A DNA stretch of 64,000 bases from an uncultured virus (IMG/VR IMGVR_UViG_3300035698_035306) (taxonomy: Duplodnaviria; Heunggongvirae; Uroviricota; Caudoviricetes). This document shows, one piece after another, positions 6,696 to 33,500 of the stretch. The position numbers were made by a program, and so were the translations under genes. The notes under the pieces were generated by a model. That model worked only from the letters and a program-made list of their open reading frames with translations. It was not told the DNA's origin and ran no database searches. The stretch lies in the IMG/VR virus record IMGVR_UViG_3300035698_035306; one strand, 5' to 3'. Position 1 is the stretch's first letter. Each line of letters opens with the position of its first letter.

Positions 6696-6723
6696 TGTTT
6701 AATTTTATAATACTAAAGTACAT

Positions 6724-6751: not shown

Positions 6752-6779
6752 CAGATAAAACGTATTTTATCCTAGTTAA

Positions 6780-9764: not shown

Positions 9765-10079
9765 CTATTTATATCTTTCAAGAACTCTTGCTCTTTTTTC
9801 AGGAGACATTTTACAAAGAACGTTTTCTCCTGGTGGTCGTGAACTTCTTTCACCACCATAAGTAATTAAAAATTCGTATTCACCATTTTCTTCAAAATGT
9901 TTAGATTTAATCTTCTGCCAATATTCGTGACTTAATAAATGCACTTCAATTGTTTTGTGATATTCATTATAGGTTAGATTATATCTTTCACCTACAATAA
10001 CAAACTCAACAAGCTTCATATTATAACCTTGTTCTTCTATTTGCTTTAATACATTAGTTATTATATTTGTTGTTTCCAT
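9765..10079 (-). CDS. hypothetical protein within tRNA operon
   Basis: ORF track. Confidence 0.6.
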   Translation of the reverse strand: METTNIITNVLKQIEEQGYNMKLVEFVIVGERYNLTYNEYHKTIEVHLLSHEYWQKIKSKHFEENGEYEFLITYGGERSSRPPGENVLCKMSPEKRARVLERYK

Positions 10080-12055: not shown

Positions 12056-12093
12056 AAAAAAAGTCTGGTTAAAAATTAATTTAGCCAGACTTT
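12056..12093 (-). terminator. attenuator terminator 1
   Basis: AAAGTCTGGCTAAA-loop-TTTAACCAGACT+T7. Confidence 0.85.
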
Positions 12094-12116
12094 AAAAATA
12101 TTGTTGAATTACTTCA

Positions 12117-12236
12117 TCATATTCGAATATCTGGCTTCACGTTCCCTGCATCAGCATTACAATCACTGCCTAAGGCTAGCGATAACGTCGATGTCAACGT
12201 GTTTAAGAGATTTGATATGTTAGTAATTGTCTTCAT
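12117..12236 (-). promoter_or_regulatory. leader peptide 1 MKTITNISNLLNTLTSTLSLALGSDCNADAGNVKPDIRI
   Basis: Codons 8-32 encode only S,N,L,T,A,G,D,C, the tRNAs downstream; AGCCAGA antiterminator. Confidence 0.85.
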
Positions 12237-13212: not shown

Positions 13213-13299
13213 TAACCCCGCTGGGACTCGAACCCAGGACTCCTCGGTTAAAAGCCGAGTGCTCTACACCTTTCGGATATCCAACTGAGCTACGGAGTT
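13213..13299 (-). tRNA. tRNA-Lys(TTT) with a hairpin inserted in the D loop
   Basis: Loop CTTTTAA; D loop contains ATATCC-GAAA-GGTGT. Confidence 0.85.
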
Positions 13300-13536: not shown

Positions 13537-13572
13537 AAAAAAAGCCTGAAGAGTAATTCTTCAGGCTTGTTA
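13537..13572 (-). terminator. attenuator terminator 2
   Basis: TAACAAGCCTGAAGA-ATTAC-TCTTCAGGC+T7. Confidence 0.88.
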
Positions 13573-13593
13573 AATATTGTTTGACGCTAGATG

Positions 13594-13683
13594 TTAATCT
13601 GCGTGTTTATCTAACAAGCCTGCAGGTTCCTTCTCCTTTTTTATAGAAGTTGTTATTGCTGATATGTTAGTTAAGTTTCTCAT
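13594..13683 (-). promoter_or_regulatory. leader peptide 2 MRNLTNISAITTSIKKEKEPAGLLDKHAD
   Basis: ATA AAA AAG GAG AAG GAA control codons; CAGGCTTGTTA antiterminator. Confidence 0.88.
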
Positions 13684-18429: not shown

Positions 18430-18433
18430 ATTA

Positions 18434-18570
18434 GGTGGCGAGGGGTGGATTCTAACCACCGATATCAATCGTATGAAAATTGTGCATTAACTTTAAACTA
18501 ATGTTTATGTTTTCTAAGTGGTATACTTGTAAAACCACTATAAGTGTTTGTTTTACTGTGCTACCTCGCC
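18434..18570 (-). ncRNA. tRNA-like RNA (CAT loop) with the ACUUAGAA module inserted in the D loop
   Basis: GGCGAGG/CCTCGCC acceptor, GGTGG-TTAGAAT-CCACC T arm, insert TAGTGG..CCACTTAGAAAAC. Confidence 0.7.
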
Positions 18571-18634
18571 ATAATTAAAAATGAATTTCTATGCACCTTA
18601 CTGGTCTATGAACATTCTAACGGTCCCGTATATC

Positions 18635-19093
18635 TTAAAGTGTCTTCTGAAGTTCCTTAAGTTGCGCTTTCGCTTCAACTAGTTTTTCATCAGCTGACTT
18701 GTTTGCTTCAATGAAGCCTTCAAGTTCTTTCACTTTGTTTTTGTTGTTTCTGTACTCAGAAGTACTTCTTCTATATCTTAAAGCTGCTCTAAGGAAGATA
18801 TACATATCTAAGTGCGTGTACTTTACATTTTCATCAAGTTCTGTCTTAATAACAAATGATGTTGATGTGTCTCCTAAGAAGTCATCATTACAGGCAGTAT
18901 TAATTACTCTTGCAAGTTCAAGCATTTTAAGCTTAACTGACTTCTCTGAATATAATGAAGCTTTCATAAGGTCTGCCCATGTTGCTACATCACCTGAAGT
19001 AAATTTTCCCATTGTTACACCAACGCCGTGTTCCTTGAACTTTACGGTTACTTCTTTTTCTTTTTCTATTGTAATTGTGTTAAAATCGTACAT
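18635..19093 (-). CDS. hypothetical protein
   Basis: ORF track; in the Val/Ile-TROVE operon. Confidence 0.7.
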   Translation of the reverse strand: MYDFNTITIEKEKEVTVKFKEHGVGVTMGKFTSGDVATWADLMKASLYSEKSVKLKMLELARVINTACNDDFLGDTSTSFVIKTELDENVKYTHLDMYIFLRAALRYRRSTSEYRNNKNKVKELEGFIEANKSADEKLVEAKAQLKELQKTL

Positions 19094-19711: not shown

Positions 19712-19748
19712 AAAAAAATCCAATCGGCTATTTGCTGACTGGATTTTA
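19712..19748 (-). terminator. attenuator terminator 3
   Basis: AAAATCCAGTCAGC-AAATA-GCCGATTGGA+T7. Confidence 0.85.
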
Positions 19749-19797
19749 AAATTTCTTTGGGTTCTATATGTTGATAAAAAACTTTCTTAAATCCAAT

Positions 19798-19884
19798 CTA
19801 TGCGCAAATAATACTTTCCACTACGATGACAGCTACTGTTTCAGTAGAGCGTATAGGGACGATATTTTTTAAATTGCGTTGCAT
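19798..19884 (-). promoter_or_regulatory. leader peptide 3 MQRNLKNIVPIRSTETVAVIVVESIICA
   Basis: V/I-rich; GATTGGATTT antiterminator overlapping the stop codon. Confidence 0.85.
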
Positions 19885-19993: not shown

Positions 19994-20040
19994 AGCTGAA
20001 TATCAAAATACCTTTCACAGTATATGATATTAAAATTAAA

Positions 20041-21010
20041 AACTTGAGACTACAGTTTTTATAGTATTGCTTTCGATGCCTGTACCAGTTCGATGCGACT
20101 CTCACTGTTGGGGACTTGTCCACTTTCCTGAAGGAAAGATACAATACCGACGCTTCCTTTTTTTAAGTGCTGGCTGTTGCACTGTCATAATGAGCGTACT
20201 CAACGTTTCTTCTCGGGTTAGACTTTTACATCTATGCATCGTCGCTAAACGATTACCTCTGTGTCTACATTAAACATTTCCACCTTGCGAGTTTCCATGT
20301 TCTTCATTGTACCGAAGTACTGAAGATTTAAGCGACTTTTACTCTCATTACCGAATGAGTCTTTGCATATAATTTTAAAGTAATGCCCGTTTGACGGGGC
20401 GACCTCTTGATTAATAGTCAAGTGCTCTTCTCTGAGCTAAATACAAAGTATTTCCATTGTTGAGCGCTCATTCAGAGCATCGTTTCCTTTTGAGAAACAA
20501 TATACACAACTCAACGTGCATTTCGGCTTGCGGCCTACTGTACGATATTTCACGTTTTCAGGTTTACTTTGGAGAAAAAACCTTTCTGCGTTTATAATTC
20601 TATATAGCCTTATGCTTGCGGCATCAGACAGTATAAATACTCCTTGTCAATTCGAATTTCGTTAAGTTGGCATAGTTAGTAATATAGTCGCCAAACTAAA
20701 TTAGAAATGCTCCTTACCTCAAGAGAGGGGCTTACATTTCATATCCTTACCAAAGGACTACTAACTCTTAACTTACATCTTTTCTCCAACTTTTGAGATT
20801 GAAGCTTACCGTTTGGTTCGGTAAATGATGAAGCTTGCTTGAATAAACCATTTCTGGCAGAGGGCTATGGAGCTCCTCTCTTTTACATCTTGCGATGTAT
20901 TATTAATTTCCAAATGACGAATCATTCAACGTAAAGAACAAGTCTAAACGTCTGGTCCGAAGACTAAGACTTTTACTCCGAAGAGTAAAACCGATTCAAG
21001 CATCGGTAAA
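20041..21010 (-). ncRNA. large structured ncRNA (~1 kb), GOLLD-like, with an embedded tRNA-like domain (~20380-20445)
   Basis: No credible ORF; higher GC; many UUCG/GCAA tetraloop hairpins on the minus strand; own promoter and boxA; lies among tRNA genes. Confidence 0.65.
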
Positions 21011-21112
21011 ATTTTTCTAATATTTTAAAGAACGTGTGTTATAATTTTCTAAGATAAAAGTACAACATTTTTTCGCAATAAAAAAGTTTATTTTGAAAAA
21101 GTTAAAAATTTA

Positions 21113-21201
21113 ATTCTACTAAATTTAAAATTTATGATACGCCAGCTGGCCACCGTAGTGGACAGAGCGTTTTTTAATTTTTTAGTGATTCTAAGTAGAA
21201 T
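21113..21201 (-). ncRNA. ACUUAGAA-stem ncRNA with a GC-rich apical domain
   Basis: ATTCTACTTAGAATCACTAAA...TTTAGTAGAAT. Confidence 0.7.
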
Positions 21202-21207
21202 ACTTTG

Positions 21208-21280
21208 TAGCGGGACTCGGACTCGAACCGAGGACCTCCAGGTTATGAGCCTGGCGAGCTGCCGCTGCTACCACCCCGCA
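21208..21280 (-). tRNA. tRNA-fMet(CAT)
   Basis: Initiator-type GTAGCAG..AGCTCG D arm, unpaired 1:72, loop CTCATAA. Confidence 0.85.
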
Positions 21281-21295
21281 ATATATTTTTATTTG

Positions 21296-21369
21296 TAGCG
21301 AGGGACGGACTTGAACCGCCGACCTCCAGGTTATGAGCCTGGCGAGCTACCAACTGCTACCACCTCGCA
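21296..21369 (-). tRNA. tRNA-fMet(CAT)
   Basis: Near-duplicate of the previous gene. Confidence 0.85.
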
Positions 21370-21555
21370 ATATATTTTGCGTAAAAATAATGTCGCTAGA
21401 ATCTAAATTCTACTACGTTTCGTTTAATACGTGTCGCTGATTATTTTTATTTTAATTTCAATAAGTAAAGAACTTCATTTGTGTCATTCTAGCTATATAT
21501 AGATGAATGTTTCAACTAAATACAGTTTATTCTGATTTAACAGAAAGTTTTATTA

Positions 21556-21744
21556 GTGCGCAATGATGGATTCGAACCACCGGCTTTTAGAAACGTTGTC
21601 GTCACGTTGTCTCCACAGTTACAATTAGTGCACATATTGATATCTGAGTCACCAGTTCGTAAGTTATACAGGGTAAGTACCATAGAAGATACATACAGCA
21701 TATAAGCAAACTTACCAGTCGCTATACCACTTAGCTAATCGCGC
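21556..21744 (-). ncRNA. tRNA-like RNA with a long insert replacing the anticodon arm
   Basis: GCGCGAT/ATTGCGC acceptor, GCTAAGTGGTATAGC D arm, GGTGGTTCGAATCCATC T arm. Confidence 0.65.
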
Positions 21745-21748
21745 ATTT

Positions 21749-21820
21749 GGTTATCCTGAGAGGACTTTAACCTCTGACCTGTCTTTCGACTGCTCTTGCG
21801 CAATTCTGAGCTACAGGATA
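21749..21820 (-). ncRNA. tRNA mimic with a GTC-GAAA-GAC mini-hairpin instead of the anticodon arm
   Basis: TATCCTG/CAGGATA acceptor; D and T arms present. Confidence 0.65.
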
Positions 21821-21906
21821 ATGTTTTTTCAATAATTTAAAGAACTATGTTATAAATTTCTAAGATAAAAGTACAACATTTAATCGCAATAAAAAAGTTT
21901 ATTTTG

Positions 21907-22043
21907 TGTTAAGTGAAAGAATCGAACTTTCATCACCGGGTTCACCTTGCTGGTTAATACCTATCTCAACTATTATTTAGATATGGACTCGAACCATAAA
22001 GCTAGCACCCAACTTGTAACCAGACATTTATAAACTAAATAAT
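21907..22043 (-). ncRNA. two degenerate tRNA-like RNAs (T arm + acceptor stem)
   Basis: GAAAGTTCGATTCTTTC and TATGGTTCGAGTCCATA T arms. Confidence 0.45.
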
Positions 22044-22047
22044 TTTG

Positions 22048-22312
22048 TAGTCGCTCGTAGTGTCGATCTACGATTCACTTACATTAAGAACCTTGCGAGT
22101 ATCTAAACGTGTAAGCTACACAATTAATAAACCATACTATCTAATACCTATCGCCAGAGCATATTTAGAGTTCTGCTCCTTTGAAACGGTAATCGAAACG
22201 ATACCTTTGCAAAGTCTAGGAACTACCTATATCTATACAGTTTAATTAATAACCACTATCACTATATTTCATTCTGACCTCTAAGCCGAAATGCTTTCCA
22301 GTTAAGCAACCA
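22048..22312 (-). ncRNA. ~265 nt RNA with tRNA-like termini (tmRNA-like architecture, non-canonical)
   Basis: GGTTGCT/AGCGACT acceptor; CGTAG-ATCGACA-CTACG T arm; boxA upstream. Confidence 0.5.
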
Positions 22313-22346
22313 TGTTTTTTCAATAATTTAAAGAACTTATTATTTG

Positions 22347-22418
22347 CGGAGAAGATTGGACTCGAACCAACGACGCACGGTGTTCAAACCGCTGCTCTAC
22401 CAACTGAGCTACCTCTCC
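22347..22418 (-). tRNA. atypical tRNA with a 6-nt anticodon loop (TTGAAC)
   Basis: Canonical D and T arms; GCGGT/ACCGT stem. Confidence 0.6.
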
Positions 22419-22768
22419 TGTCCCCTTAACATCTCATTAATTGTCAAAGCGTCGACTCAAATCTAATTAATCGCTGCAGCTACGAGCATTGGGGCATTTT
22501 TTCTAGGCAGTATGGTTAACTTTTACAATTTCGTGACACTAAGTCGAAACCGAAATGTTACCTATTATTCTGAATTGGCATGTATCGTTTTATACTCGAC
22601 CGTGGTACGCAATTAGCGCCTCACTAATATTGCCTTAAAGCAATCAACATCTACTAAATGTTATCAGAATTTCAATATTTTAAAGAACTTGTTGTTTTAA
22701 TGTTCGATACTAAAGTACCAAATATAATTGACAACCCAAAGTTTATTTGTAAAAAAACTTTATAAAAA

Positions 22769-24617: not shown

Positions 24618-24656
24618 ATCTAAATAATATTTATCAATACGTGAAAGAACAATTGT

Positions 24657-24738
24657 GGTACCGGGTAGAATCGAACTACCGACCTCTGGCGTTTCAAACC
24701 AGCACTCTATGCATATAGCTCCACTGAGTTACGGCACC
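24657..24738 (-). tRNA. tRNA-Phe(GAA) with enlarged D loop
   Basis: Loop TTGAAAC. Confidence 0.82.
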
Positions 24739-25404
24739 ATGATTTTCAATATCCCTTTTAAACCATATTTCTAATTTATGGCCTTTATCTCTTACTGCTT
24801 GCCATTTTAAATAATCTTTTTCTTGTACTCTTCCTTTTACTTCTAAATAATAAAAAGTACCATCATTTTCAAAAATCTTAAAATCTATTAAATACGAATG
24901 ATTCTTATTATCTAATCCAATATATGTAAATTTGTCATTTGTATATTCCCAATCTTTAATCTTTTTATTTTCTTTCCAATCATCTAAAATCAAACATGTA
25001 TTTAATTCATATGAACCTTGTACTTTTATATTTTTATATTTAATCCACTTTGTATAACCGCCTGTCTGTTTAATTCTACCTGATTTTATACCATTCTTTC
25101 TTGTTGTACTTATATTTTCTCTATGCTTAGCTGATAATTTATTATTTTTATTTCTATAACTTATATGACATGAGCCTGAACAGAATTTTTGTTTATTTCT
25201 TTTAGATGATTTTACATTAAATTCATCTTTACAATTCTTACAAATAAGAGTAACAAATTTTGTTGAAATTCCCATTCTTGTTAATCTTACTTTTGCTTTA
25301 AATTCTTTTGTTCGTATACCTCTACTATTAGCACACTTTAATGAACAAAATCTTCCACTTCCATAAGAACCATCATGTTCAATATTACACCTTTCACAAA
25401 TCAT
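24694..25404 (-). CDS. putative homing endonuclease: Zn-binding repeats + TnsA-like PD-(D/E)XK domain
   Basis: CxxC...FCSxxC twice; GSYE...YLIDF...LEVKG; very AT-rich; reads into tRNA-Phe. Confidence 0.75.
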   Translation of the reverse strand: MICERCNIEHDGSYGSGRFCSLKCANSRGIRTKEFKAKVRLTRMGISTKFVTLICKNCKDEFNVKSSKRNKQKFCSGSCHISYRNKNNKLSAKHRENISTTRKNGIKSGRIKQTGGYTKWIKYKNIKVQGSYELNTCLILDDWKENKKIKDWEYTNDKFTYIGLDNKNHSYLIDFKIFENDGTFYYLEVKGRVQEKDYLKWQAVRDKGHKLEIWFKRDIENHGAVTQWSYMHRVLV

Positions 25405-25470: not shown

Positions 25471-25506
25471 AAAAAAAGTCCAACTTCATAAATGAGGTTG
25501 GACTTC
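25471..25506 (-). terminator. attenuator terminator 4
   Basis: AAGTCCAACCTCAT-TT-ATGAAGTTGGAC+T7. Confidence 0.85.
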
Positions 25507-25530
25507 GTATTTAAAATTATTTATAACTTT

Positions 25531-25608
25531 CTAATACCCTATACTAACCTCCTGAGTGACTCTTGGTCTCGGAAAAAATCTAAATGATATGTTAGTAGTT
25601 GTGTTCAT
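25531..25608 (-). promoter_or_regulatory. leader peptide 4 MNTTTNISFRFFPRPRVTQEVSIGY
   Basis: TTT AGA TTT TTT CCG AGA CCA AGA control codons; GAGGTT antiterminator. Confidence 0.9.
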
Positions 25609-25695: not shown

Positions 25696-26148
25696 TTATT
25701 TGATATATTTTGAATCCACTGCAGGGATTGCAAACCAGCCAGTCTTTAGACCTGTATCAAATGTTAATCCATCTTCTATCATTTTTGCTGCGTCAATAGA
25801 TAATACTTTAATTTCTGTATCACCATCTTGTTCTATAGTAGATTTTTCTGCGTTCTTCGCAGTATCAGTTAAGAATACGTTTTCTTCATCTTGAGGAACT
25901 AAACCTTCTTTCTTTACAGCTTCTGCATCTTCTAATTTAATAGCATGATATAATACTGCAGGTACTTCTTCTGCTTCTTGTCCAGTTTTGGCTGCTTCAT
26001 CCATATCATCTTTGGCTTTCTTAGCTGCCATCGCGATTAATGCTGCATTCTCATCAGTTTCTTCGTCTTCTTTCTTTGCATCTTTTTTACATTCAGCTTC
26101 GTTTAAAACGAATTGTTCGAACGTCATTACATATCTCTTGTCATCCAT
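25696..26148 (-). CDS. Tpt1/KptA-like (ADP-ribosyltransferase fold) protein with capsid-targeting-like N-terminus
   Basis: LYHA...EGLVP...VFLT...VLSIDA...IP; N-terminus MTFEQFVLNE. Confidence 0.55.
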   Translation of the reverse strand: MDDKRYVMTFEQFVLNEAECKKDAKKEDEETDENAALIAMAAKKAKDDMDEAAKTGQEAEEVPAVLYHAIKLEDAEAVKKEGLVPQDEENVFLTDTAKNAEKSTIEQDGDTEIKVLSIDAAKMIEDGLTFDTGLKTGWFAIPAVDSKYIK

Positions 26149-26186
26149 TTTCGTAAGTTATTATTTTGATTATATATCAGAATAAC

Positions 26187-27161
26187 TTAAGTTAGTTCCA
26201 GGATTAACTTTACAGCCTTATCGAATCTCTCATCCCAGTTGCCAGATATGGTTTTGTAGTCAATACCTGCATCTTCTAGTTCTCTTATATGATAATCCTT
26301 TAATTTGTTTCTATCTTCTTCAGTCAGTCTAGAACCATCTTGAATGTGAGGTACATCGTTATCTAAGAATAAGTACAAATCATAGTTGTTATAATCATCT
26401 ACAAATTGAGGATATTTAAGTTCTTTATTAAATAGGAATTTCGAATAAGACTTCGTTATATTGATGTCAGTATCTACAATCATAATCTTATTAGAATAAT
26501 TATCATTGAAAAATACTCTCAGTGCATGTGCTTTTGCAATCTTTTCTAAGTCTTCATACTTAACATCATAAACGCCGTCTGTTAATTCTCGGCCCATTTC
26601 ACCGACATAATAGCCTGCGAAATGTTCTGTAAGTCTCTTAGCTAAAGTGGTTTTACCAGTCGATTCTGTCCCGACTACACAAATCTTCTTGTAATAATAT
26701 TTCTGAACTGGGTCAGGTATTTTATCCCAATTAATATACGGATTTTCTCTAATCATTGTAGCTGATACTGGAAGAGTAGTTCTTTCGATATCATAGTTAA
26801 TACATTCAATGCCCATAAAATCTGCAAGATACTGTCCGTATTCTTCAGATGATATGATAACATCTAAGTCGAAGTTGTAACTTAATATCTTATCAGCCCA
26901 TTTTTTTGTAGCTTCTTCATCAGGAACTGATGATGATGTTAGATTATTTTTATTGTAAGACATATAATTAATATGTACTTTAACATCATTTCCAAATACA
27001 TCATCTAGAAATTCAATTCTTGTCAGAGCATTTATATGTTCATCTTGTTCTGCACACAATAATAGAATTACTTGGTCACATTGTGTTTTTGCAAATTCAA
27101 CCATTGCAATATGCCCATTATGTAATGGCATAAATTTACCTAATACTAGTCCTCTTTTCAT
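26187..27161 (-). CDS. nadR: NadR-type NMN adenylyltransferase / nicotinamide riboside kinase
   Basis: GKFMPLHNGH, SATMIR, GTESTGKTT, DTD, QDGSR. Confidence 0.92.
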   Translation of the reverse strand: MKRGLVLGKFMPLHNGHIAMVEFAKTQCDQVILLLCAEQDEHINALTRIEFLDDVFGNDVKVHINYMSYNKNNLTSSSVPDEEATKKWADKILSYNFDLDVIISSEEYGQYLADFMGIECINYDIERTTLPVSATMIRENPYINWDKIPDPVQKYYYKKICVVGTESTGKTTLAKRLTEHFAGYYVGEMGRELTDGVYDVKYEDLEKIAKAHALRVFFNDNYSNKIMIVDTDINITKSYSKFLFNKELKYPQFVDDYNNYDLYLFLDNDVPHIQDGSRLTEEDRNKLKDYHIRELEDAGIDYKTISGNWDERFDKAVKLILELT

Positions 27162-27783
27162 TTTTCAAAAATTTAATCCATGTTATTAATCCTGATGTAG
27201 CTAACATTGAGAATAAGAAATATTCTACTGACATAAATAAAATACCCTTTAATATGTAGAGTACAATACAAACGATGTCAACTGATATCCATAAAACCCA
27301 AGTTTCAATTTTCTTTTGAGCCATTAAAACAACTGCTATTATACTTGCAGTAGTTGTAAATGCATCGAAATATGGGTAAGCAGCTGGCTGACTGAAGAAC
27401 TGTGGTAGCATCTCATGTATGTGTGACATATAACTTCCTATAAATATCGTCCCAGCTGTGACTAAAAATAGCACTAGAGTAATTTGATTCTTATCTAATC
27501 TACTTATAGTTTTCTTTGCATCTTTTTTACTCCAATTTATCCAACCGTATATTCCTATAATTATAAACCAGACTTGTAGAAACATGTCGGAATACAAATT
27601 TACTTGATAAAATAGAATTAAGAATGCAGCTGCATTAATAATACCAATTGGCCAAGTCAGAACATTAGCCCTGACACTGTACCAAACACATATCAGACCA
27701 GTAATAGTTCCGATAAGTTCTATTAAGCTGACCTGATATCCAAGTACTTCAAATAATACGTTATGAATACTTATAATGTCCAT
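27136..27783 (-). CDS. pnuC: PnuC nicotinamide riboside transporter
   Basis: WPIGI, YGWINW, DAFTT, KKIETWVLWISVD; multiple TM segments. Confidence 0.92.
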   Translation of the reverse strand: MDIISIHNVLFEVLGYQVSLIELIGTITGLICVWYSVRANVLTWPIGIINAAAFLILFYQVNLYSDMFLQVWFIIIGIYGWINWSKKDAKKTISRLDKNQITLVLFLVTAGTIFIGSYMSHIHEMLPQFFSQPAAYPYFDAFTTTASIIAVVLMAQKKIETWVLWISVDIVCIVLYILKGILFMSVEYFLFSMLATSGLITWIKFLKNEKRTSIR

Positions 27784-29789
27784 TTAAGTGATATGTAAAA
27801 GTTTGTTGGAGCTTGAACGAAATATCTTGCATCTCCATATACGTTTAAGTGACCATGAGAATAATATTTCTGATTAGTCAAATTATTTCCTCTTACTGTT
27901 ATGTCAAATTGGTGAAATTTATAACCAACAGCTGCATTGATTGTATAAAATTCTGGAAGTTCTAAATCATTACCAAAATCTAAATAAGACTTACTTTGAT
28001 ATCTTGCATTGAAACATAGATATAAATTCTTATATTTGTAATAGAAGTCTTGATTAACAATTATTGCTGGAGTTAGAATAGGTTCAAATTGTACACCATC
28101 TTCTGTAATACGATTCATCGAGAATGATGAGTTATTACGTACTCCAAATCTTTTAGTTAAATCATATTGAACATCTAATTCAATACCACTCTTAGTACTT
28201 TCAGCTACGTTACTATGTAATGCAATTCCATTTGGGCCGAATTGACCATTAAGTGCTATTTCATTCTCAAATTGCATATGATATAAGTTAGCAAATATAT
28301 GACCTTTCTTTGCAAAGTATCTATAACCAAGTTCGTGGTCGAGTACTTCTTCTGGTACGATGTTACTATAGATACCGTTACCTAAGCTATCACTCATTAA
28401 GTTATCTTCACCATAGAATATATCAGTACGTGATGGTTCTCGTGATGTAGTTCCTATACTGTAGTAGAAAGTATTCTTACCCATTTTGTATTGTAAACCT
28501 GCATGTGGTGTAATAAAGTCCCATTGCATTTTGTCCATTGTAGCATCACCTTCATATGAAAATTCAGCATGTCTATAACTAACATCTGCAAAAAATACTA
28601 AGCCTTTAATATCATAAGTTGCTTTAGCGAATCCACTGTATTCATTTTTAGTTCCAGTATTAGTATACAGTTCACCGATTTTAGCTTCTGAACCTAAGTG
28701 AGTTCTTTGAAACGTATTACCATGTATTCCTGTATAGAATTTAAAAGCTTTATTAGTATATGAATAATTTACAAAAGCTCCAACAAAGTTATGTACTAAG
28801 TTATAATTATAGACTGCACTGTCGATAGCACCTTCTGGTAATTCTAAGAAAGCATTCAAATCAAAATCATAATTTCCTTGAAGGTGATTATAATAGACTG
28901 TGCTTGAAAGTTTTGACTTATCAGATATAAAGTATGTATGTTGTAACTTAACTAAGCTCTGTAAGAAATTATCTTTCTCATTTTCGAAATTTGTATTATA
29001 TCGCGGGTTAGCTTTAAGTGAATCCATTGGACTTCCTAGCCATACCATATCATTTTTCTGATGTCCTATAAAACCTGTAAGCTTTAAAAGGTGTTTGTTC
29101 TTTACATATCCAGTACTGAATAGAACAGAACGTGAGTCATTTCCTGAATGTTCTTTATAACCATCAGTATGTATGTTTGAACCTCTTATATAGAACCCAA
29201 AGTTCTTTCTTTTACCGCTGTAATATTCTACATACTCTCGATGTGTATTATAAGAACCGTAGTCAATTCCAACTTGTAATGATGTATCTCCAAATAAGAG
29301 CGGGGATTGAAAGTTAATACTTCCTCCGTAACTTGCAACACCATTTGAAGATGTTCCAATACCTCTTTGTATTTGAATAGAACTTACTGAATTTATAAAA
29401 TCTGGATAGTTATTAAAGTAGACTCCCTGGTCTTCACCTTCATTAAGCGGAACGCCATCCCATGTCATGTTAATTCTGGTCTGGTCTATACCTCTTAAAC
29501 GGAAGTATGAATAACCTACCATATTCCCAGCATCTGAATAACTGTTTACACTTGGAGTTTGATTTAAAAGGAATGCAGGTTCCTGACCAACACTCTTTTC
29601 GTTTAACTCTTTAGCGTCAATATTCTTGTACGTGATTGGAGTACTCTTATTAGCTCGATAGAATGTTATTACGCATTCTTCTAATAACACGGCATCTGTT
29701 GAATCAGGAACCGCAGTAGTGTCTGTTTGCGCGAAACTCAACGTCGCTGCAAATAATAGACTAAATAATAGTAATGTGAATTTCTTCAT
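27771..29789 (-). CDS. TonB-dependent outer-membrane receptor
   Basis: Signal peptide; plug RLRGIDQTRIN...SIQIQRG...GGSINF; beta-barrel with NNLTNQKY and C-terminal W-T-L. Confidence 0.92.
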   Translation of the reverse strand: MKKFTLLLFSLLFAATLSFAQTDTTAVPDSTDAVLLEECVITFYRANKSTPITYKNIDAKELNEKSVGQEPAFLLNQTPSVNSYSDAGNMVGYSYFRLRGIDQTRINMTWDGVPLNEGEDQGVYFNNYPDFINSVSSIQIQRGIGTSSNGVASYGGSINFQSPLLFGDTSLQVGIDYGSYNTHREYVEYYSGKRKNFGFYIRGSNIHTDGYKEHSGNDSRSVLFSTGYVKNKHLLKLTGFIGHQKNDMVWLGSPMDSLKANPRYNTNFENEKDNFLQSLVKLQHTYFISDKSKLSSTVYYNHLQGNYDFDLNAFLELPEGAIDSAVYNYNLVHNFVGAFVNYSYTNKAFKFYTGIHGNTFQRTHLGSEAKIGELYTNTGTKNEYSGFAKATYDIKGLVFFADVSYRHAEFSYEGDATMDKMQWDFITPHAGLQYKMGKNTFYYSIGTTSREPSRTDIFYGEDNLMSDSLGNGIYSNIVPEEVLDHELGYRYFAKKGHIFANLYHMQFENEIALNGQFGPNGIALHSNVAESTKSGIELDVQYDLTKRFGVRNNSSFSMNRITEDGVQFEPILTPAIIVNQDFYYKYKNLYLCFNARYQSKSYLDFGNDLELPEFYTINAAVGYKFHQFDITVRGNNLTNQKYYSHGHLNVYGDARYFVQAPTNFYISLKWTL

Positions 29790-29860: not shown

Positions 29861-30937
29861 TTATGAATTTATCTGCCCAGAATCTGTAAACTCTTTATAA
29901 GACTCAGGGATTAATTTATTTTCATATGCACGAATTGGTCTTTCCGATGATTTTTCACAATCGTCTTCACAATAAGTGTCAAAAGCTTCTTGATTCATAA
30001 CCTTTGAACCATCTCTTGATTTGTCAAGTGATTCTTTAGTAATCTTACCCATTGATTTTAATTGTGTTAGAGCTTTATCGTAATCCCATTCGTAAACTAC
30101 TAATGAAATAATAAATTCTTTAAGGTGTGACATTGTAAAACCATCTGAATCTTTCACAAGTTTCTTAATATCTAAATCAAGTTTCTTAATGTCATCTTCA
30201 TTAATTTTAGCTTCGAAGTATAATTTTCTATCTTCTGCAGTTGGGTCAGTAACCTCATATTTCTGGTCAAATCTTGAAGGTCTGTTAACTATGTTTTCTT
30301 CAAGTCTTTCAGGATAGTTAGTTGTTGCTAAGTAACAAATATTGTTCATTTGTTTAATACCATCAAGTAAGTTTAAGATAACTGATTTATTCATTGAGTC
30401 TTGCATAAGACCATCTAAGTCTTCCATGATAACAAGTATCTTTCTATCAGGTTCTACTTCTCTTAAATTGTAAATAAGCTTCTCAAACATGTCAGCATAC
30501 TTAGGGAAATAAAGAACTACAACATTCTGCTCTTCTACTAATTGACTAACAAGTTTGTTTATAATAAAGGTCTTACCGTTACCAGGTCTTCCATACATAA
30601 GAATACCTCTCTTATGATTATAACCGTGACTTAAATAATGTTCACCTTTACCGTAAAAGTCTACAATATTTTCTACAATTTCTTGGTATGTTGGATTTGA
30701 TAATTCAATGATGTCATCTATATTAAGAAGGATTTTCTTAACGTAATAGCCTTGTTGATTAGCTTCTACAGTATAGACACCAGCTGTAAGTGTATTCTTA
30801 GTGAATGATGTTGGCATAAATGAGTTGGTACCAACTTTGGCCCATTGGACAAAATTTCTTGCTTCTTCTTCTAATTCTTGTCCACTCTTTTTAGTAGAGA
30901 TAGTTTCTCCGTATTCTTCGAATAATTTAAACTTCAT
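29861..30937 (-). CDS. AAA+ ATPase
   Basis: GRPGNGKT, MEDLD, LLDG, ATTNYPE, RPSRFD. Confidence 0.92.
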   Translation of the reverse strand: MKFKLFEEYGETISTKKSGQELEEEARNFVQWAKVGTNSFMPTSFTKNTLTAGVYTVEANQQGYYVKKILLNIDDIIELSNPTYQEIVENIVDFYGKGEHYLSHGYNHKRGILMYGRPGNGKTFIINKLVSQLVEEQNVVVLYFPKYADMFEKLIYNLREVEPDRKILVIMEDLDGLMQDSMNKSVILNLLDGIKQMNNICYLATTNYPERLEENIVNRPSRFDQKYEVTDPTAEDRKLYFEAKINEDDIKKLDLDIKKLVKDSDGFTMSHLKEFIISLVVYEWDYDKALTQLKSMGKITKESLDKSRDGSKVMNQEAFDTYCEDDCEKSSERPIRAYENKLIPESYKEFTDSGQINS

Positions 30938-30987
30938 GCCGTATACTTATTTTTATTATATATCAGCTTTATTTAGTTAACTCTTTG

Positions 30988-31061
30988 CACGCCTGGTAGG
31001 AATCGAACCTACAACCACTGGTTTTGGAGACCAGCATTCTACCTAATTGAACTACAGACGT
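30988..31061 (-). tRNA. tRNA-Trp(CCA)
   Basis: Loop CTCCAAA. Confidence 0.92.
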
Positions 31062-31079
31062 GTATAGTTTATATGTTAG

Positions 31080-31149
31080 CACGCCTGGCAGGAATCGAAC
31101 CCGCTTACCGAGGGGTTGGAATCCTGGTTGCTGCCGTTGCATCAGACGT
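31080..31149 (-). tRNA. tRNA-Trp(CCA), atypical
   Basis: Loop TTCCAAC. Confidence 0.65.
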
Positions 31150-31153
31150 ATGT

Positions 31154-31223
31154 TGGGACCTTAATAGGAATTGAACCTACGTTAAACCATCATTGCAGTG
31201 CGCATATCTGCTAATAAAGTCCA
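31154..31223 (-). ncRNA. degenerate tRNA-like RNA
   Basis: GGACTTT/AAGGTCC acceptor, TAGGTTCAATTCCTA T arm. Confidence 0.4.
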
Positions 31224-31226
31224 TTT

Positions 31227-31301
31227 GGGTGAAGGACGAGAATCGAACTCGCGACGACCAGAACCACAATCTGGCGCTCTACCTACTGAGCTACCTCCAC
31301 C
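31227..31301 (-). tRNA. tRNA-His(GTG)
   Basis: Loop TTGTGGT. Confidence 0.92.
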
Positions 31302-31308
31302 ATGTTAA

Positions 31309-31500
31309 TTATTCAAGTTCACTATCAATGAACTTCTTTACATCTTGTTTTTCTGAACGCTTTTCACTTCTGTATTCGCGTTTCAAATCTTCAAGATGTG
31401 CCTTTCTGTGACGGGTACTTTCAAAACTAAGATTTTTCATGTCACGTTTCTTATCTTTAATAGCTTCTCTTTTCTGTCTGTAATACTTATCGTTTTTCAT
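31309..31500 (-). CDS. small basic coiled-coil protein (MKNDKYY...)
   Basis: ORF between the two His tRNAs. Confidence 0.6.
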   Translation of the reverse strand: MKNDKYYRQKREAIKDKKRDMKNLSFESTRHRKAHLEDLKREYRSEKRSEKQDVKKFIDSELE

Positions 31501-31516
31501 TACAATTTTTATTTTG

Positions 31517-31603
31517 GGTGAAGGACGAGATTCGAACTCGCGACCTCTCGGTTCACAGCCGAGTGCTCTAAGCTTTCGCAAACCAACTGAGCTACAATCA
31601 CCA
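31517..31603 (-). tRNA. tRNA-His(GTG) with a GC-GAAA-GC hairpin in the D loop
   Basis: Loop CTGTGAA. Confidence 0.85.
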
Positions 31604-31615
31604 TGTTAGTTATTA

Positions 31616-31729
31616 GGTGGGGCAGGCACGATTTAACATGCTATCTTCAAATTTACGGTTTGTTGCTTAGTTTTTAAGTTTTCTAAGTGAAGTATATGAC
31701 GTCACTAATTTTTATTTAGCTTCTGCCCC
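31616..31729 (-). ncRNA. tRNA-like RNA (GTA loop) with the ACUUAGAA module in the D loop
   Basis: GGGGCAG/CTGCCCC acceptor; insert TTAGTGA..TCACTTAGAAAACT. Confidence 0.7.
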
Positions 31730-31734
31730 ATATG

Positions 31735-31817
31735 TGTGCCAGATTGGATTCGAACCAATGTACTCCGAAGAGACCGGATTTACAGTCCGGCGCCTTTAAC
31801 CGCTCAGCCACTGACAC
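31735..31817 (-). tRNA. tRNA-Tyr(GTA)
   Basis: Loop CTGTAAA, long variable arm. Confidence 0.93.
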
Positions 31818-31828
31818 ATATTTAATTG

Positions 31829-31897
31829 TGGGACGAGTAGGAATCGAACCTACCTGCTAGAGGGTTACAACCTCGGCTATCGCCTTGAGACCGTCCC
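31829..31897 (-). tRNA. tRNA-Tyr(GTA), atypical short form
   Basis: GAGG-TTGTAAC-CCTC. Confidence 0.6.
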
Positions 31898-31931
31898 AAT
31901 TAAATTTTTATTGCAAGAAAAGAAAGAACAT

Positions 31932-31973
31932 AAAAAAAGCCTAAAGAACATTTTGAGAATGTAGCTTTAGGCT
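31932..31973 (-). terminator. attenuator terminator 5
   Basis: AGCCTAAAG..ACATT-CTCAA-AATGT..CTTTAGGC+T7. Confidence 0.85.
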
Positions 31974-32010
31974 GTTATATTTGAAAGGAGGTGCTGTGAT
32001 TTATCTACCG

Positions 32011-32088
32011 TCAATTTAACATTATACTACACTCTTGGTTTTGATACCAATAATGATGAAGTGCGTTATGTATGTTTAAATTGTTCAT
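32011..32088 (-). promoter_or_regulatory. leader peptide 5 MNNLNIHNALHHYWYQNQECSIMLN
   Basis: CAT CAT TAT TGG TAT control codons; AGAGTGTAGT antiterminator. Confidence 0.9.
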
Positions 32089-32178
32089 TGTTTCTATTTG
32101 TTAAGATATTATATATCTATGTTTGTTTGTTATTCTATACTAAAGTAAGATAAAGTTTCGCAATTTGAAAGCTTTTTC

Positions 32179-32802
32179 TTAGAATCTTTTATTTTTCTTT
32201 CTATTTTTCTTATAATTTCTTCTTTCTCTACTACTATTTAAGATGTCTCTACGTTCATCATTTCTTACAAGATGTTCTCGGTTATATAATTCCGCTTTGA
32301 CCTGCTTACGTGTAACGTGAGTACCTTCTATGTACAAATCTTTATCTACTGTATGATACTCGTCATACTCGTAGTAATAATAAGAACGTGCTGAGCGTTG
32401 TAAGAATGCTAATAATCTTTTCGTATCAATCTTCTTTAAGACTTCAGGTATTTCTACCTTGCTCATATCTTGTTTTGTTCTTTGCCAAGCTTTAACGTTT
32501 TCGTAATACTTAAATCCAGTTGATACATCGCATGTACCGTCTTTATTTACTTTTCTTACAATTCCGCCAACTTGTTTAAAGCTACCATTTACTTTAACTC
32601 TAATGCTACAAGTTTCATCTATCTCAAATACATGAGGTTCGTATGTACTATAACATCGTGATGGGTGTTGTTTACGTTTAAGTGCAACATCTTTCTGTTG
32701 TCTTAATGACCAAAGTTTTTCCCAATGTTCGATTGATAAATGTTTCTCTGAGATATCTCTCTCATTATATAATTTTTCTAATGCTTCTGTTTCTATACTC
32801 AT
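32179..32802 (-). CDS. hypothetical protein with a basic C-terminal tail
   Basis: ORF track. Confidence 0.7.
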   Translation of the reverse strand: MSIETEALEKLYNERDISEKHLSIEHWEKLWSLRQQKDVALKRKQHPSRCYSTYEPHVFEIDETCSIRVKVNGSFKQVGGIVRKVNKDGTCDVSTGFKYYENVKAWQRTKQDMSKVEIPEVLKKIDTKRLLAFLQRSARSYYYYEYDEYHTVDKDLYIEGTHVTRKQVKAELYNREHLVRNDERRDILNSSRERRNYKKNRKKNKRF

Positions 32803-32968
32803 AATATTGCTTAATTTTTAATTTAACATTACTTGGCTAATATACCAAATGTTTTTGACTTACCAAAGTGTTTCTGTAAAAATCTATGCAACAATCATGA
32901 CGTTATTCCTTTTTAATTATTTTTATATTACTAATGTACTAATTTATCTCGCAATAAAAAAGTATTTG

Positions 32969-33038
32969 TCGCGTACATCAGGTTCGAACTGATTTATCGC
33001 AGGATATGAGCCCGTGACCTTTTCCTCTAAGCTACGCA
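32969..33038 (-). tRNA. tRNA-Met(CAT), elongator, atypical
   Basis: Loop CTCATAT. Confidence 0.65.
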
Positions 33039-33046
33039 ATATTTAG

Positions 33047-33119
33047 AAGCTCTACACAGAATCGAACTGTGGTCTTCTGGTTCAAAACCAGGTGTAATTA
33101 CCGTTATACGATAGAGCAA
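33047..33119 (-). tRNA. tRNA-Gln(TTG)
   Basis: Loop TTTTGAA. Confidence 0.85.
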
Positions 33120-33123
33120 TATG

Positions 33124-33194
33124 TTGTCTTACAAGGATTCGAACCTTGAACGCCTGGACCAAAACCAGATGTGTTACCATTACACCATAAGACA
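33124..33194 (-). tRNA. tRNA-Gln(TTG)
   Basis: Loop TTTTGGT. Confidence 0.9.
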
Positions 33195-33204
33195 ATGTTT
33201 TTTG

Positions 33205-33276
33205 TTGCTCTGCCAAGATTCGAACTTGGGCTACCTGATTCAAAGTCAGGTGTGTTAACCTCTACACTACAGAGCA
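33205..33276 (-). tRNA. tRNA-Gln(TTG)
   Basis: Loop CTTTGAA. Confidence 0.9.
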
Positions 33277-33293
33277 GTTTTTCGATTAAACCT

Positions 33294-33325
33294 AAAAAAA
33301 GGCTTAAGAAGTAAATCTTAAGCCA
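33294..33325 (-). terminator. attenuator terminator 6
   Basis: GGCTTAAGA-TTTACT-TCTTAAGCC+T7. Confidence 0.88.
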
Positions 33326-33352
33326 TCGTTTATGTAAAATATTTTATATCAA

Positions 33353-33424
33353 CTATGAACCTAAGAATTTCCCAACAGTTTGCTGTTGTTGCATTTGCAT
33401 AGTATATTGATAAGTTCTAGTCAT
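33353..33424 (-). promoter_or_regulatory. leader peptide 6 MTRTYQYTMQMQQQQTVGKFLGS
   Basis: ATG CAA ATG CAA CAA CAG CAA control codons; TCTTAGGTT antiterminator. Confidence 0.9.
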
Positions 33425-33444
33425 TGTTTCTATTTGTTTGAGTA

Positions 33445-33500
33445 TTATATATTGTTGTTTGTTTGATTGTTCTATACTAAAGTAAGATAAAGTTTCGCAA
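33445..33500 (-). promoter_or_regulatory. tandem promoter cassette TTGCGA-N-TACTTTAGTATAG followed by ATATA(T)A; also at ~12250-12303, 13706-13760, 25620-25672, 32110-32163
   Basis: Near-identical sequence upstream of five of the six leaders. Confidence 0.75.

What the first reader, a model, noticed from the sequence alone, without database searches (positions are those of the whole stretch)
31932..33424. Attenuators 5 (HHYWY) and 6 (MQMQQQQ)
L5 precedes Tyr x2, His x2 and Trp x2, and AGAGTGTAGT pairs with GCTACATTCT. L6 precedes Gln x3 and an elongator Met, and TCTTAGGTT pairs with GGCTTAAGA. The rare residues make chance unlikely. The L6 match also suggests the atypical Met(CAT) gene at 32969 is functional. 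The initiator tRNAs (21208, 21296) have no such leader, consistent with elongation-based sensing.
Basis: partly seen in the sequence, partly recalled or inferred. Interest (0 to 1): 0.8.

Follow-up and report, generated by a model that had tools for sequence, protein, structure and literature searches.

The report
Decoding-speed switches gating phage tRNA genes
An uncultured phage puts a tiny translated test gene and a switchable transcription stop in front of each tRNA gene cluster, written in the amino acids those tRNAs carry, so it probably makes each tRNA set only when ribosomes decode those codons slowly.

Summary
On the minus strand two short ORFs, L5 (32088-32011, run HHYWY) and L6 (33424-33353, run MQMQQQQ), each follow the same promoter-like motif and A-rich 5' UTR. 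Each ends 28-37 nt before a strong intrinsic terminator that lies 17-34 nt before tRNA genes: Tyr x2, His x2 and Trp for L5, Gln x3 for L6.

They are two of six such units in the window. Together the six split all 20 amino acids among them without overlap. Three controls single out the true arrangement:
- Leader residues match their own tRNA set better than any of the 719 other pairings.
- Each ORF 3' zone pairs best with its own terminator arm, in 6 of 6 rows.
- Modelled antiterminator loss falls at the end of the regulatory run in 6 of 6 units.

Cellulophaga phages phi4:1 and phi17:2 carry three unannotated units of the same design.

Weak points:
- The L5 pairing is not significant on its own.
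- The second "Trp" and the "Met" genes score below tRNA thresholds.
- I found no RNA data and no diverged relatives.

Most likely this is ribosome-mediated attenuation of tRNA operons. Seven literature searches found no published account. Earlier notes of this scan report the same idea on other DNA.

The parts
33470..33500 (-). U6 promoter-like motif, shared by five units
   Evidence: 4 matches with up to 3 mismatches against 0 expected from shuffles. add a fifth at 13743. One search aligns the five units.
33425..33469 (-). U6 A/C-rich 5' UTR (45 nt) with no Shine-Dalgarno sequence
   Evidence: The first ATG after the motif is the L6 start. The context resembles the A-rich starts of ordinary genes in the window.
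33353..33424 (-). Leader ORF L6, 23 codons plus stop
   Evidence: Its Gln codons are 5 CAA and 1 CAG.
33380..33400 (-). L6 regulatory run MQMQQQQ (codons 9-15)
   Evidence: Q makes up 6 of 22 residues, P 2.3e-5.
33358..33367 (-). L6 antiterminator 5' strand, ending 5 nt before the end of the ORF
   Evidence: duplex -7.7 kcal/mol with the terminator 5' arm (shuffle P 0.01, genomic P 0.09). models its masking by the ribosome.
33294..33324 (-). L6 intrinsic terminator: 9-bp stem, 6-nt loop, 7 T
   Evidence: -13.4 kcal/mol. It starts 28 nt after the stop codon.
33046..33276 (-). Three tRNA-Gln(TTG) genes; the first starts 17 nt after the T tract
   Evidence: 72.8, 64.9 and 54.0 bits.
32970..33037 (-).
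   Evidence: 18.4 bits against a threshold of 29. ARAGORN makes no call at -ps80; fold z-score -0.77.
32133..32163 (-). U5 promoter-like motif, identical to that of U6
   Evidence: 0 mismatches.
32011..32088 (-). Leader ORF L5, 25 codons plus stop
   Evidence: Codons CAT x3, TAT x2 and TGG x1 are all readable by the GTG, GTA and CCA anticodons downstream.
32044..32058 (-). L5 regulatory run HHYWY (codons 11-15)
   Evidence: 6 of 24 residues are in the set (P 0.011), with 5 in a row.
32025..32035 (-). L5 candidate antiterminator 5' strand
   Evidence: -8.5 kcal/mol with 31957-31966; not significant alone (P 0.15 and 0.40). It forms in the minimum-energy fold of the nascent RNA.
31932..31973 (-). 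L5 intrinsic terminator: extended hairpin plus 7 T
   Evidence: -14.3 kcal/mol. It starts 37 nt after the stop codon.
31734..31897 (-). Two tRNA-Tyr(GTA) genes; the first starts 34 nt after the T tract
   Evidence: One search gives 59.2 bits for 31735-31817; the other is called by ARAGORN only.
31517..31601 (-). tRNA-His(GTG) with a 13-nt D-loop insertion
   Evidence: 52.3 bits; alignment shown. ARAGORN misses it at the default setting.
31309..31500 (-). 63-aa ORF between the two His genes; no family found
   Evidence: no PHROG match.
31227..31300 (-). tRNA-His(GTG)
   Evidence: 63.5 bits.
31079..31222 (-).
   Evidence: 20.2 and 17.7 bits; called only at the relaxed ARAGORN setting.
30987..31061 (-). 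tRNA-Trp(CCA)
   Evidence: 68.5 bits.
25471..25608 (-). Sister unit U4: leader with run FRFFPRPR, then terminator. Downstream lie an HNH ORF, Phe x2, Arg(TCT) and Pro x3.
19712..19884 (-). Sister unit U3: Ile/Val-rich leader, then terminator. Downstream lie Val x2 and Ile x2.
   Evidence: The low coordinate is approximate.
13537..13683 (-). Sister unit U2: leader with run KKEKE, then terminator. Downstream lie Lys x3, Glu x3 and Met.
12056..12236 (-). Sister unit U1: 25 consecutive leader residues from {S,A,C,D,T,N,G,L}, then terminator. Downstream lie 15 tRNAs of exactly those 8 amino acids.

Best explanation
L5 and L6 are ribosome-mediated (leader-peptide) transcription attenuators that gate tRNA operons of a phage with a Bacteroidota-type host.

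Proposed mechanism:
1. Transcription starts at a conserved promoter, and the A-rich 5' UTR loads a ribosome onto the leader ORF.
2. If the cell decodes His/Tyr/Trp codons (L5) or Gln codons (L6) quickly, the ribosome runs to the stop codon and covers the ORF's 3' segment. The terminator hairpin then forms and transcription ends before the tRNA genes.
3. If the cognate aminoacyl-tRNAs are scarce, the ribosome stalls in the regulatory run. The segment 10-13 nt downstream stays free and pairs with the terminator's 5' arm. The polymerase reads through and the tRNAs are made.
4. As the new tRNAs accumulate, stalling stops. Each tRNA set therefore limits its own synthesis.

Shown: the anatomy, the statistics and the modelled geometry. 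Inferred: translation of the leaders, the direction of the switch, and what limits decoding in an infected cell.
For: 1. Fixed architecture, seen six times: promoter, UTR, short ORF, terminator, tRNAs. The stop codon lies 25-28 nt before the terminator in 4 of 6 units (37 and 52 nt in the other two), although ORF length ranges from 23 to 39 codons.

2. The tRNAs start 17 nt (L6) and 34 nt (L5) after the T tract. That leaves no room for a separate promoter, so the tRNAs need read-through.

3. Leader residues match the unit's own tRNA set. Only 1 of 720 pairings of leaders and sets reaches the score of the true pairing. The runs are 25, 5, 4, 8, 5 and 4 residues long.

4. The six sets partition all 20 amino acids without overlap.

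5. Antiterminators. The best duplex between upstream RNA and the terminator's 5' arm lies in the ORF's 3' part or at its stop in 6 of 6 units. Shuffle P values are 0.012, 0.04, 0.016, 0.22, 0.15 and 0.01. Fisher combination gives about 9e-5 (my arithmetic). Each ORF 3' zone pairs best with its own terminator arm in 6 of 6 rows, and the true pairing is the best of 720.

6. Geometry. Assume a ribosome hides 15 nt 3' of its A site. The modelled sequestration of the terminator arm then holds while the A site is in or before the regulatory run, and collapses within about two codons of the run's end in 6 of 6 units. For L5 it is 0.58, falling to 0.26 at codon 16. For L6 it is 0.99, falling to 0.34 at codon 17.

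7. The five units that share the motif conserve promoter and UTR and diverge afterwards. They look like paralogues retuned to different tRNA sets.

8. Independent lineage. Cellulophaga phages phi4:1 and phi17:2 have three unannotated units with a different promoter and the same logic. The match extends to isoacceptors: a CGT codon precedes tRNA-Arg(ACG), and an AGA codon precedes tRNA-Arg(TCT).
Against: - There is no transcript, 3'-end or ribosome data for this phage (one search listed no RNA holder), so neither translation nor regulated read-through is shown.
- I found no diverged relatives of L5 or L6, so there is no covariation within these two units.
- The L5 antiterminator is weak (-8.5 against a -14.3 kcal/mol terminator). 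It is not significant alone, and another unit's ORF zone pairs with L5's arm slightly better (-9.1). For L6's arm too, the own-unit pairing is not the column minimum (-7.7 against -7.9).
- The leaders contain many unmatched residues. L5 has 6 Asn and 2 Gln; L6 has 4 Thr and 2 Tyr.
- U2's overall composition is not enriched (6 of 28 residues, P 0.51). Its tRNA-Met has no internal Met codon in the leader.
- The thermodynamic model ignores kinetics and uses an assumed ribosome footprint.
- A stall also reports amino-acid starvation, which extra tRNA would not cure.
Confidence: 0.75

Rival explanations
1. The terminators are constitutive, partly leaky stops that set a fixed low level of tRNA transcription or end an upstream small RNA. 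The short ORFs are not sensors, and their composition is coincidental or reflects shared ancestry.
For: The terminators are strong and more stable than the proposed antiterminators. The L5 and U4 pairings are not significant alone. No expression data exist.
Against: This does not explain several results:
- The leader composition follows the unit's own tRNA set (1 of 720).
- The stop codon keeps its distance to the terminator.
- Each ORF 3' zone matches its own terminator arm.
- The switch point falls at the end of the run in 6 of 6 units.
- The design recurs in phi4:1 with unrelated sequence.
Confidence: 0.1
2. The codon runs act at the RNA level without translation. For example, tRNAs could bind the leader RNA by their anticodons as in a T-box, or the terminated leader RNA could act as a decoy for tRNA-directed nucleases.
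For: The run of cognate codons is also a run of sites complementary to the anticodons of the downstream tRNAs. Terminated leaders would be abundant small RNAs.
Against: - The codons are in one frame with a start codon, which is the first ATG after the promoter, and with a positioned stop.
- At curated thresholds every one of the 46 Rfam matches in the window is to tRNA, so no T-box or other riboswitch family was found. None appears down to E 10 in 30900-33500 either.
- A T-box reads one tRNA with a large conserved fold, whereas these leaders list up to eight amino acids.
Confidence: 0.06
3. The attenuator is real, but it reports amino-acid starvation or general slowing of translation rather than tRNA abundance. 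It would then tie tRNA output to host physiology and would not be a feedback on the tRNAs themselves.
For: A ribosome senses aminoacyl-tRNA, not tRNA as such. Classic leaders respond to amino-acid supply (established knowledge of the trp and his attenuators; PMC1183508 abstract).
Against: Each leader lists exactly the amino acids of its own tRNA genes, and in phi4:1 the matching Arg isoacceptor. That specificity serves no purpose for a general starvation signal. Making tRNA does not relieve amino-acid shortage.
Confidence: 0.15

Closest known systems
Leader-peptide attenuators of enterobacterial amino-acid operons (trp, his, leu, thr, ilv, pheA)
   Same: Both have a promoter-proximal short ORF with a run of regulatory codons and an intrinsic terminator. 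Both have an alternative pairing that competes for the terminator's 5' arm, with ribosome position deciding the outcome. The thr and ilv leaders also sense several amino acids at once.
   Different: - Here the regulated genes are tRNAs, the very molecules that are sensed, not biosynthetic enzymes.
- The element belongs to a phage of a Bacteroidota-type host, and translation starts without a Shine-Dalgarno sequence.
- One leader (U1) lists up to eight amino acids.
- There is no sequence match to any Rfam leader family.
pheM leader of the pheST operon and His-codon leaders upstream of hisS in bacilli
   Same: A leader peptide controls a component of the translation apparatus for the same amino acid. 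The hisS case is described in PMC2965389 (passages read). The pheST case is recalled.
   Different: Those regulate aminoacyl-tRNA synthetase genes in cellular genomes, not tRNA genes, and each senses one amino acid.
T-box riboswitches
   Same: Both read out the state of a specific tRNA to control transcription termination.
   Different: A T-box binds uncharged tRNA directly with a large conserved RNA and needs no translation. No T-box match was found here, and the signal here is a translated codon run.
Unannotated leader units in the tRNA arrays of Cellulophaga phages phi4:1 and phi17:2 (KC821632.1, KC821609.1)
   Same: Three units each have a promoter, a short ORF listing the amino acids of the tRNAs that follow, a terminator and then the tRNAs.
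   Different: - The promoter (host-type TTTG...TAnnTTTG form, recalled consensus), the leader sequences and the grouping of amino acids are all unrelated.
- One unit is annotated as a hypothetical protein with an upstream TTG start.
- These phages have a culturable host.

Membership tests
Ribosome-mediated (leader-peptide) transcription attenuator | Short ORF close to the promoter with a usable start | tested here: met
   In the five units sharing the motif, the first ATG after the promoter motif opens the ORF, 35-46 nt downstream. The upstream context is A-rich. Translation itself cannot be tested here.
Ribosome-mediated (leader-peptide) transcription attenuator | Run of codons cognate to the regulated product | tested here: met
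   L5 has HHYWY before Tyr, His and Trp genes. L6 has 6 Gln codons before three Gln genes. The true leader/tRNA pairing is the best of 720.
Ribosome-mediated (leader-peptide) transcription attenuator | Intrinsic terminator between the leader ORF and the regulated genes, with no promoter in between | tested here: met
   The hairpins are -14.3 and -13.4 kcal/mol with 7 T. The first tRNA lies 34 and 17 nt after the T tract.
Ribosome-mediated (leader-peptide) transcription attenuator | Antiterminator pairing that competes with the terminator and is masked by a ribosome that has passed the run | tested here: inconclusive
   - L6: shuffle P 0.01, genomic P 0.09.
- L5: P 0.15 and 0.40.
- All six units together: Fisher about 9e-5, own-arm specificity in 6 of 6 rows, and the switch point at the end of the run in 6 of 6.

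The feature is met for the set and is not settled for L5 alone.
Ribosome-mediated (leader-peptide) transcription attenuator | Read-through that rises when the cognate aminoacyl-tRNA is scarce | not testable with these tools
   No RNA run holds the stretch.
Rfam amino-acid operon leader families (His, Trp, Leu and Thr leaders; names recalled) | Match to the family covariance model | tested here: not met
   All 46 matches at curated thresholds are to tRNA. No leader family appears among the 20 matches down to E 10 in 30900-33500.
T-box riboswitch | Match to the T-box model (specifier loop and conserved T-box sequence) | tested here: not met
   No T-box match.
   The elements score 18.4 and 20.2 bits against 29. 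ARAGORN makes no call for the Met-like element even at -ps80, and calls the Trp-like one only at -ps80.

The most novel reading that the evidence does not exclude
This phage carries a complete tRNA set for 20 amino acids, split into six operons. Each operon is switched by its own decoding-speed sensor. The phage would thus measure, amino acid by amino acid, how well the infected cell can translate, and top up only the tRNAs that are short. Shortage could arise when host tRNAs are mismatched to phage codons or are destroyed by tRNA-cleaving defences; the window also encodes an RNA ligase and a Tpt1-type enzyme. tRNA genes regulated by the decoding activity of their own products would be a regulatory logic not described for any tRNA gene.
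Probability: 0.6. Interest if true: 0.9.

Novelty: new variant of a known kind. Interest (0 to 1): 0.8.

Why it matters
Why phages carry tRNA genes is a long-standing question. The proposed answers are compensation for codon usage, and rescue after host tRNAs are degraded or cleaved by defence systems.

An attenuator written in the codons of the tRNAs it controls would mean that the phage makes each tRNA group on demand, in response to a measured decoding shortage. That turns the question into a testable one: vary one tRNA and read out terminator read-through.

It would also extend leader-peptide attenuation in three directions: to RNA genes, to viruses, and to hosts that lack Shine-Dalgarno-led initiation. 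The leaders could become a way to predict which odd tRNA-like genes are functional. The units in Cellulophaga phages phi4:1 and phi17:2 offer a culturable system for the experiments.

Tried and rejected
Searches for relatives of L5 and L6:
- No DNA relatives among 50,697 phage records. One search found tRNA matches only; one search found none.
- Nothing in viral contigs.
- The metagenome scan returned nine loci from six contigs. All are the same phage with identical leaders.
- The window has no held genome.
- Sequencing runs: no RNA holder listed. DNA contigs of four runs showed no variation in the leaders.

Survey through the neighbouring AAA ATPase:
- 80 viral loci were fetched.
- Only 13 tRNAs were found, in 11 of them.
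- 0 units of terminator plus leader were found, so the ATPase is not syntenic with tRNA arrays elsewhere.

Other phages examined, with no unit found:
- Flavobacterium phage immuto, L010.
- The 484-kb phage LR756508.1, two stretches L013 and L014, with 28 scattered tRNAs in the whole record. The one hit is a weak terminator with an unmatched ORF.
- crAss-like cr3_1 and LoVEphage, upstream regions read by eye. LoVEphage has a zinc-ribbon-like small ORF there instead.

Not done or uninformative:
- A duplex-energy statistic for the three phi4:1 units was not run. The script after one search was not accepted, and I dropped that step, so complementarity in phi4:1 is described from the printed sequence only.
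- Notes of this scan for this genome or for look-alike DNA: none.
- PHROGs gave no function for the ORFs inside or beside the units, except an HNH endonuclease in U4.
Full report
**What the window is.** All tRNA genes lie on the minus strand. ARAGORN finds 43, and Rfam finds 46 matches at its curated thresholds, all of them to the tRNA family. The protein genes point to a large phage of a Bacteroidota-type host:
- a type-9-secretion sorting domain and a TonB-dependent receptor;
- NAD salvage genes;
- an RNA ligase and a Tpt1-type enzyme.

The window has no close relative among 50,697 phage records or in the viral contig collection. A metagenome scan recovered only the same phage in pieces.

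**The observation.** Each of the two units has the same parts in the same order.

| Feature | L5 | L6 |
|---|---|---|
| ORF | 32088-32011, 25 codons | 33424-33353, 23 codons |
| Distance from the 31-nt promoter-like motif to the ORF | 44 nt, A/C-rich, no Shine-Dalgarno | 45 nt, A/C-rich, no Shine-Dalgarno |
| Regulatory run | HHYWY, codons 11-15 | MQMQQQQ, codons 9-15 |
| Terminator | 31973-31932, -14.3 kcal/mol, seven T | 33324-33294, -13.4 kcal/mol, seven T |
| Stop codon to terminator | 37 nt | 28 nt |
| T tract to first tRNA | 34 nt | 17 nt |

The gaps after the T tracts leave no room for another promoter, so the tRNAs can only be made by read-through.

**Downstream genes of L5**:
- two tRNA-Tyr(GTA);
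- a tRNA-His(GTG) with a 13-nt D-loop insertion (52.3 bits);
- a 63-aa ORF;
- a normal tRNA-His;
- two tRNA-like elements below threshold, one with a CCA anticodon loop (20.2 bits against 29);
- a solid tRNA-Trp.

**Downstream genes of L6:** three tRNA-Gln(TTG), then a degenerate element with a CAU anticodon loop. That element scores 18.4 bits against 29 and is not called by ARAGORN even at a relaxed setting.

**The two units belong to a set of six.** The motif with its UTR occurs five times, at leader starts 12236, 13683, 25608, 32088 and 33424. A sixth unit with another promoter starts at 19884.

| Unit | Leader feature | Downstream tRNA genes |
|---|---|---|
| U1 | 25 consecutive residues from {S,A,C,D,T,N,G,L} | 15 tRNAs of exactly those eight amino acids |
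| U2 | KKEKE | Lys x3, Glu x3, Met |
| U3 | Ile/Val-rich | Val x2, Ile x2 |
| U4 | FRFFPRPR | Phe x2, Arg(TCT), Pro x3 |
| U5 (L5) | HHYWY | Tyr x2, His x2, Trp |
| U6 (L6) | MQMQQQQ | Gln x3 |

Two ARAGORN identities had to be corrected from Rfam alignments. The "Ser(aga)" is a Lys(TTT), and an uncalled gene is a Phe(GAA); both have D-loop insertions. After that correction the six tRNA sets divide all 20 amino acids with no overlap.

**Is the match more than chance?** Background composition came from 10,934 residues of long ORFs in the window.
- L5 has 6 of 24 residues in {H,Y,W} against 0.081 expected (P 0.011).
- L6 has 6 of 22 Gln against 0.028 (P 2.3e-5). With Met counted, it has 8 of 22 against 0.055 (P 1.3e-5).
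- In a six-by-six matrix of leaders against tRNA sets, only 1 of 720 pairings, the true one, reaches the observed score.
- Not every unit is enriched overall. U2 has 6 of 28 residues in its set (P 0.51), and its signal lies in the five-residue run.
- At codon level, L6 uses CAA five times and CAG once. L5 uses CAT, TAT and TGG. All are readable by the downstream anticodons.

**The switch.** All six terminators are canonical, at -11.5 to -15.2 kcal/mol.

*Duplex test.* In 6 of 6 units, the best duplex between the upstream RNA and the terminator's 5' arm lies in the last third of the ORF or at its stop.
- Shuffle P values are 0.012, 0.04, 0.016, 0.22, 0.15 (L5) and 0.01 (L6).
- Against random genomic segments, L5 gives 0.40 and L6 gives 0.09.
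- L5's pairing is therefore not significant alone.
- Combined over the six, the shuffle values give about 9e-5 by Fisher's method (my arithmetic).

*Cross test.* Each ORF 3' zone pairs best with its own terminator arm in 6 of 6 rows, and the true pairing is the best of 720. By columns, however, L5's and L6's arms are each bound slightly better by another unit's zone.

*Ribosome-position model.* I modelled the nascent RNA up to the terminator loop, with 15 nt after the A site hidden and no pairing across the ribosome.
- L5: the terminator arm stays sequestered at 0.58 for A sites at codons 1-14, drops to 0.44 at codon 15, and is 0.25-0.32 beyond.
- L6: it is 0.98-0.99 up to codon 15, 0.74 at codon 16, 0.34 at codon 17, and 0.18-0.29 beyond.
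- In all six units the drop falls within about two codons of the end of the regulatory run.

This is the geometry expected of a leader-peptide attenuator. It is a thermodynamic model with an assumed footprint, not a measurement.

**Paralogy.** An alignment of the five motif-bearing units shows near-identical promoter and UTR and unrelated sequence afterwards. Despite ORFs of 23 to 39 codons, the stop codon keeps a distance of 25-28 nt to the terminator in four units. I read this as duplicated units retuned to different tRNA sets, with selection on where translation ends.

**An independent case.** Cellulophaga phage phi4:1 (KC821632.1) has three unannotated units in its tRNA array. Their promoter is different, a host-type TTTG...TAnnTTTG form whose consensus I recall.
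- A leader with Q, R, L, H, E and P precedes Pro, Glu, Gln, His, Leu x2 and Arg(ACG).
- A leader rich in T, K, G, I, V, D, A and R precedes Ala, Lys, Ile, Gly, Met, Asp, Thr, Val, Arg(TCT) and Met.
- A leader with N, Y, C, S, W and F precedes Tyr, Ser, Asn, Trp, Phe and a GCA-anticodon gene annotated as a pseudogene.
- The Arg codon is CGT in the first leader and AGA in the second, matching the Arg isoacceptor that follows each.

Phage phi17:2 has the same three units with one synonymous Gln change.

I could not complete a duplex statistic for these units, so their antiterminators are described by eye only. Four other phages I looked at show no such unit. A survey of 80 viral loci around homologues of the neighbouring ATPase found few tRNAs and no unit. 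The design is therefore not universal.

**Interpretation.** The most likely reading (0.75) is ribosome-mediated attenuation. Slow decoding of the run keeps the antiterminator strand free and lets the polymerase reach the tRNA genes. Fast decoding lets the ribosome cover that strand, and the terminator forms. Because the products are the sensed tRNAs, each unit would be a negative feedback on its own tRNA group.

The two initiator-like tRNA-Met genes (21207-21369) have a 1:72 mismatch, read. My scan found no terminator upstream of them. This fits a sensor that works in elongation, but it is a single case.

The claim that the Met-like element is functional is not supported by the detectors. It is also weakened by U2, whose solid tRNA-Met has no internal Met codon in its leader.

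**Comparison with what is known.**
- The mechanism resembles the trp, his, thr and ilv leaders, and the leader-controlled synthetase genes. The hisS case is in PMC2965389 (passages read); the pheST case is recalled.
- It does not match any Rfam leader or T-box family.
- Seven full-text searches found no account of tRNA genes under leader-peptide attenuation (listings and abstracts only, apart from PMC2965389). Papers outside that library were not searched.
- Earlier notes of this scan report the same idea in other genomes: 103 findings in at least 98 genomes hold the search words, and the eight shown all describe it. None concerns this genome. Those notes are not independent evidence.

**Verdict.** The attenuator reading is well supported for the set of six and for L6. 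It is supported mainly by context for L5. The side claims on the second Trp gene and on Met are not supported. The finding is a new variant of a known kind of control, applied to a class of genes for which I found no description of it.

Noticed in passing
window 31517-31601, 13213-13299, 24656-24738 (minus strand): Three tRNAs, His(GTG), Lys(TTT) and Phe(GAA), carry a 13-16-nt insertion in the D-loop that looks like a small extra hairpin. Each stands beside a normal copy of the same isoacceptor. ARAGORN misses or misnames them.
   Followed up: partly
window 18430-18600 (minus strand): Acceptor-stem and T-arm halves of a tRNA-like gene are separated by more than 100 nt. This could be an intron or an insertion. 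It lies inside unit U3, between the two Ile genes.
   Followed up: no
window 20000-22700 (minus strand): A second repeated promoter-like sequence (near 21900, 21090 and 19975) precedes long structured stretches and degenerate tRNA-like elements. One of these is a tRNA that ARAGORN reads with a two-base anticodon (22346-22418).
   Followed up: no
window 1392-1464 (minus strand): A tRNA with a CTA anticodon (74.7 bits), which is an amber-suppressor type, lies just downstream of the RNA ligase gene.
   Followed up: no
L001 3624-4031 and L003 1907-2314: On other contigs that carry the same promoter motif, ARAGORN calls a tmRNA-like gene with a tag peptide. It lies downstream of a small lipoprotein-like ORF.
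   Followed up: no
window 24694-25404 (minus strand): An HNH endonuclease ORF sits between the U4 terminator and its tRNAs, so it would be co-regulated with them. ORFs of unknown function also interrupt U1 (9765-10079), U3 (18635-19093) and U5 (31309-31500).
   Followed up: partly
window 1477-8820 and 25696-29789 (minus strand): A cluster of RNA-repair and NAD genes lies here: RNA ligase, Tpt1-type 2'-phosphotransferase, NadR-like protein, PnuC transporter, TonB-dependent receptor, NAPRTase, NAD synthase, Nudix and isochorismatase-family proteins.
   Followed up: partly
window about 21455-21490 (minus strand): A 9-codon ORF with two Met codons lies upstream of the pair of initiator-like tRNA-Met genes. 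It has no recognisable terminator.
   Followed up: no
L011 3366-3485 (KC821632.1 gp075) and L017 3639-3758: The annotated 'hypothetical protein' in the tRNA arrays of phi4:1 and phi17:2 is probably a leader ORF. Its annotated TTG start overlaps the promoter; a GTG further in fits better.
   Followed up: partly
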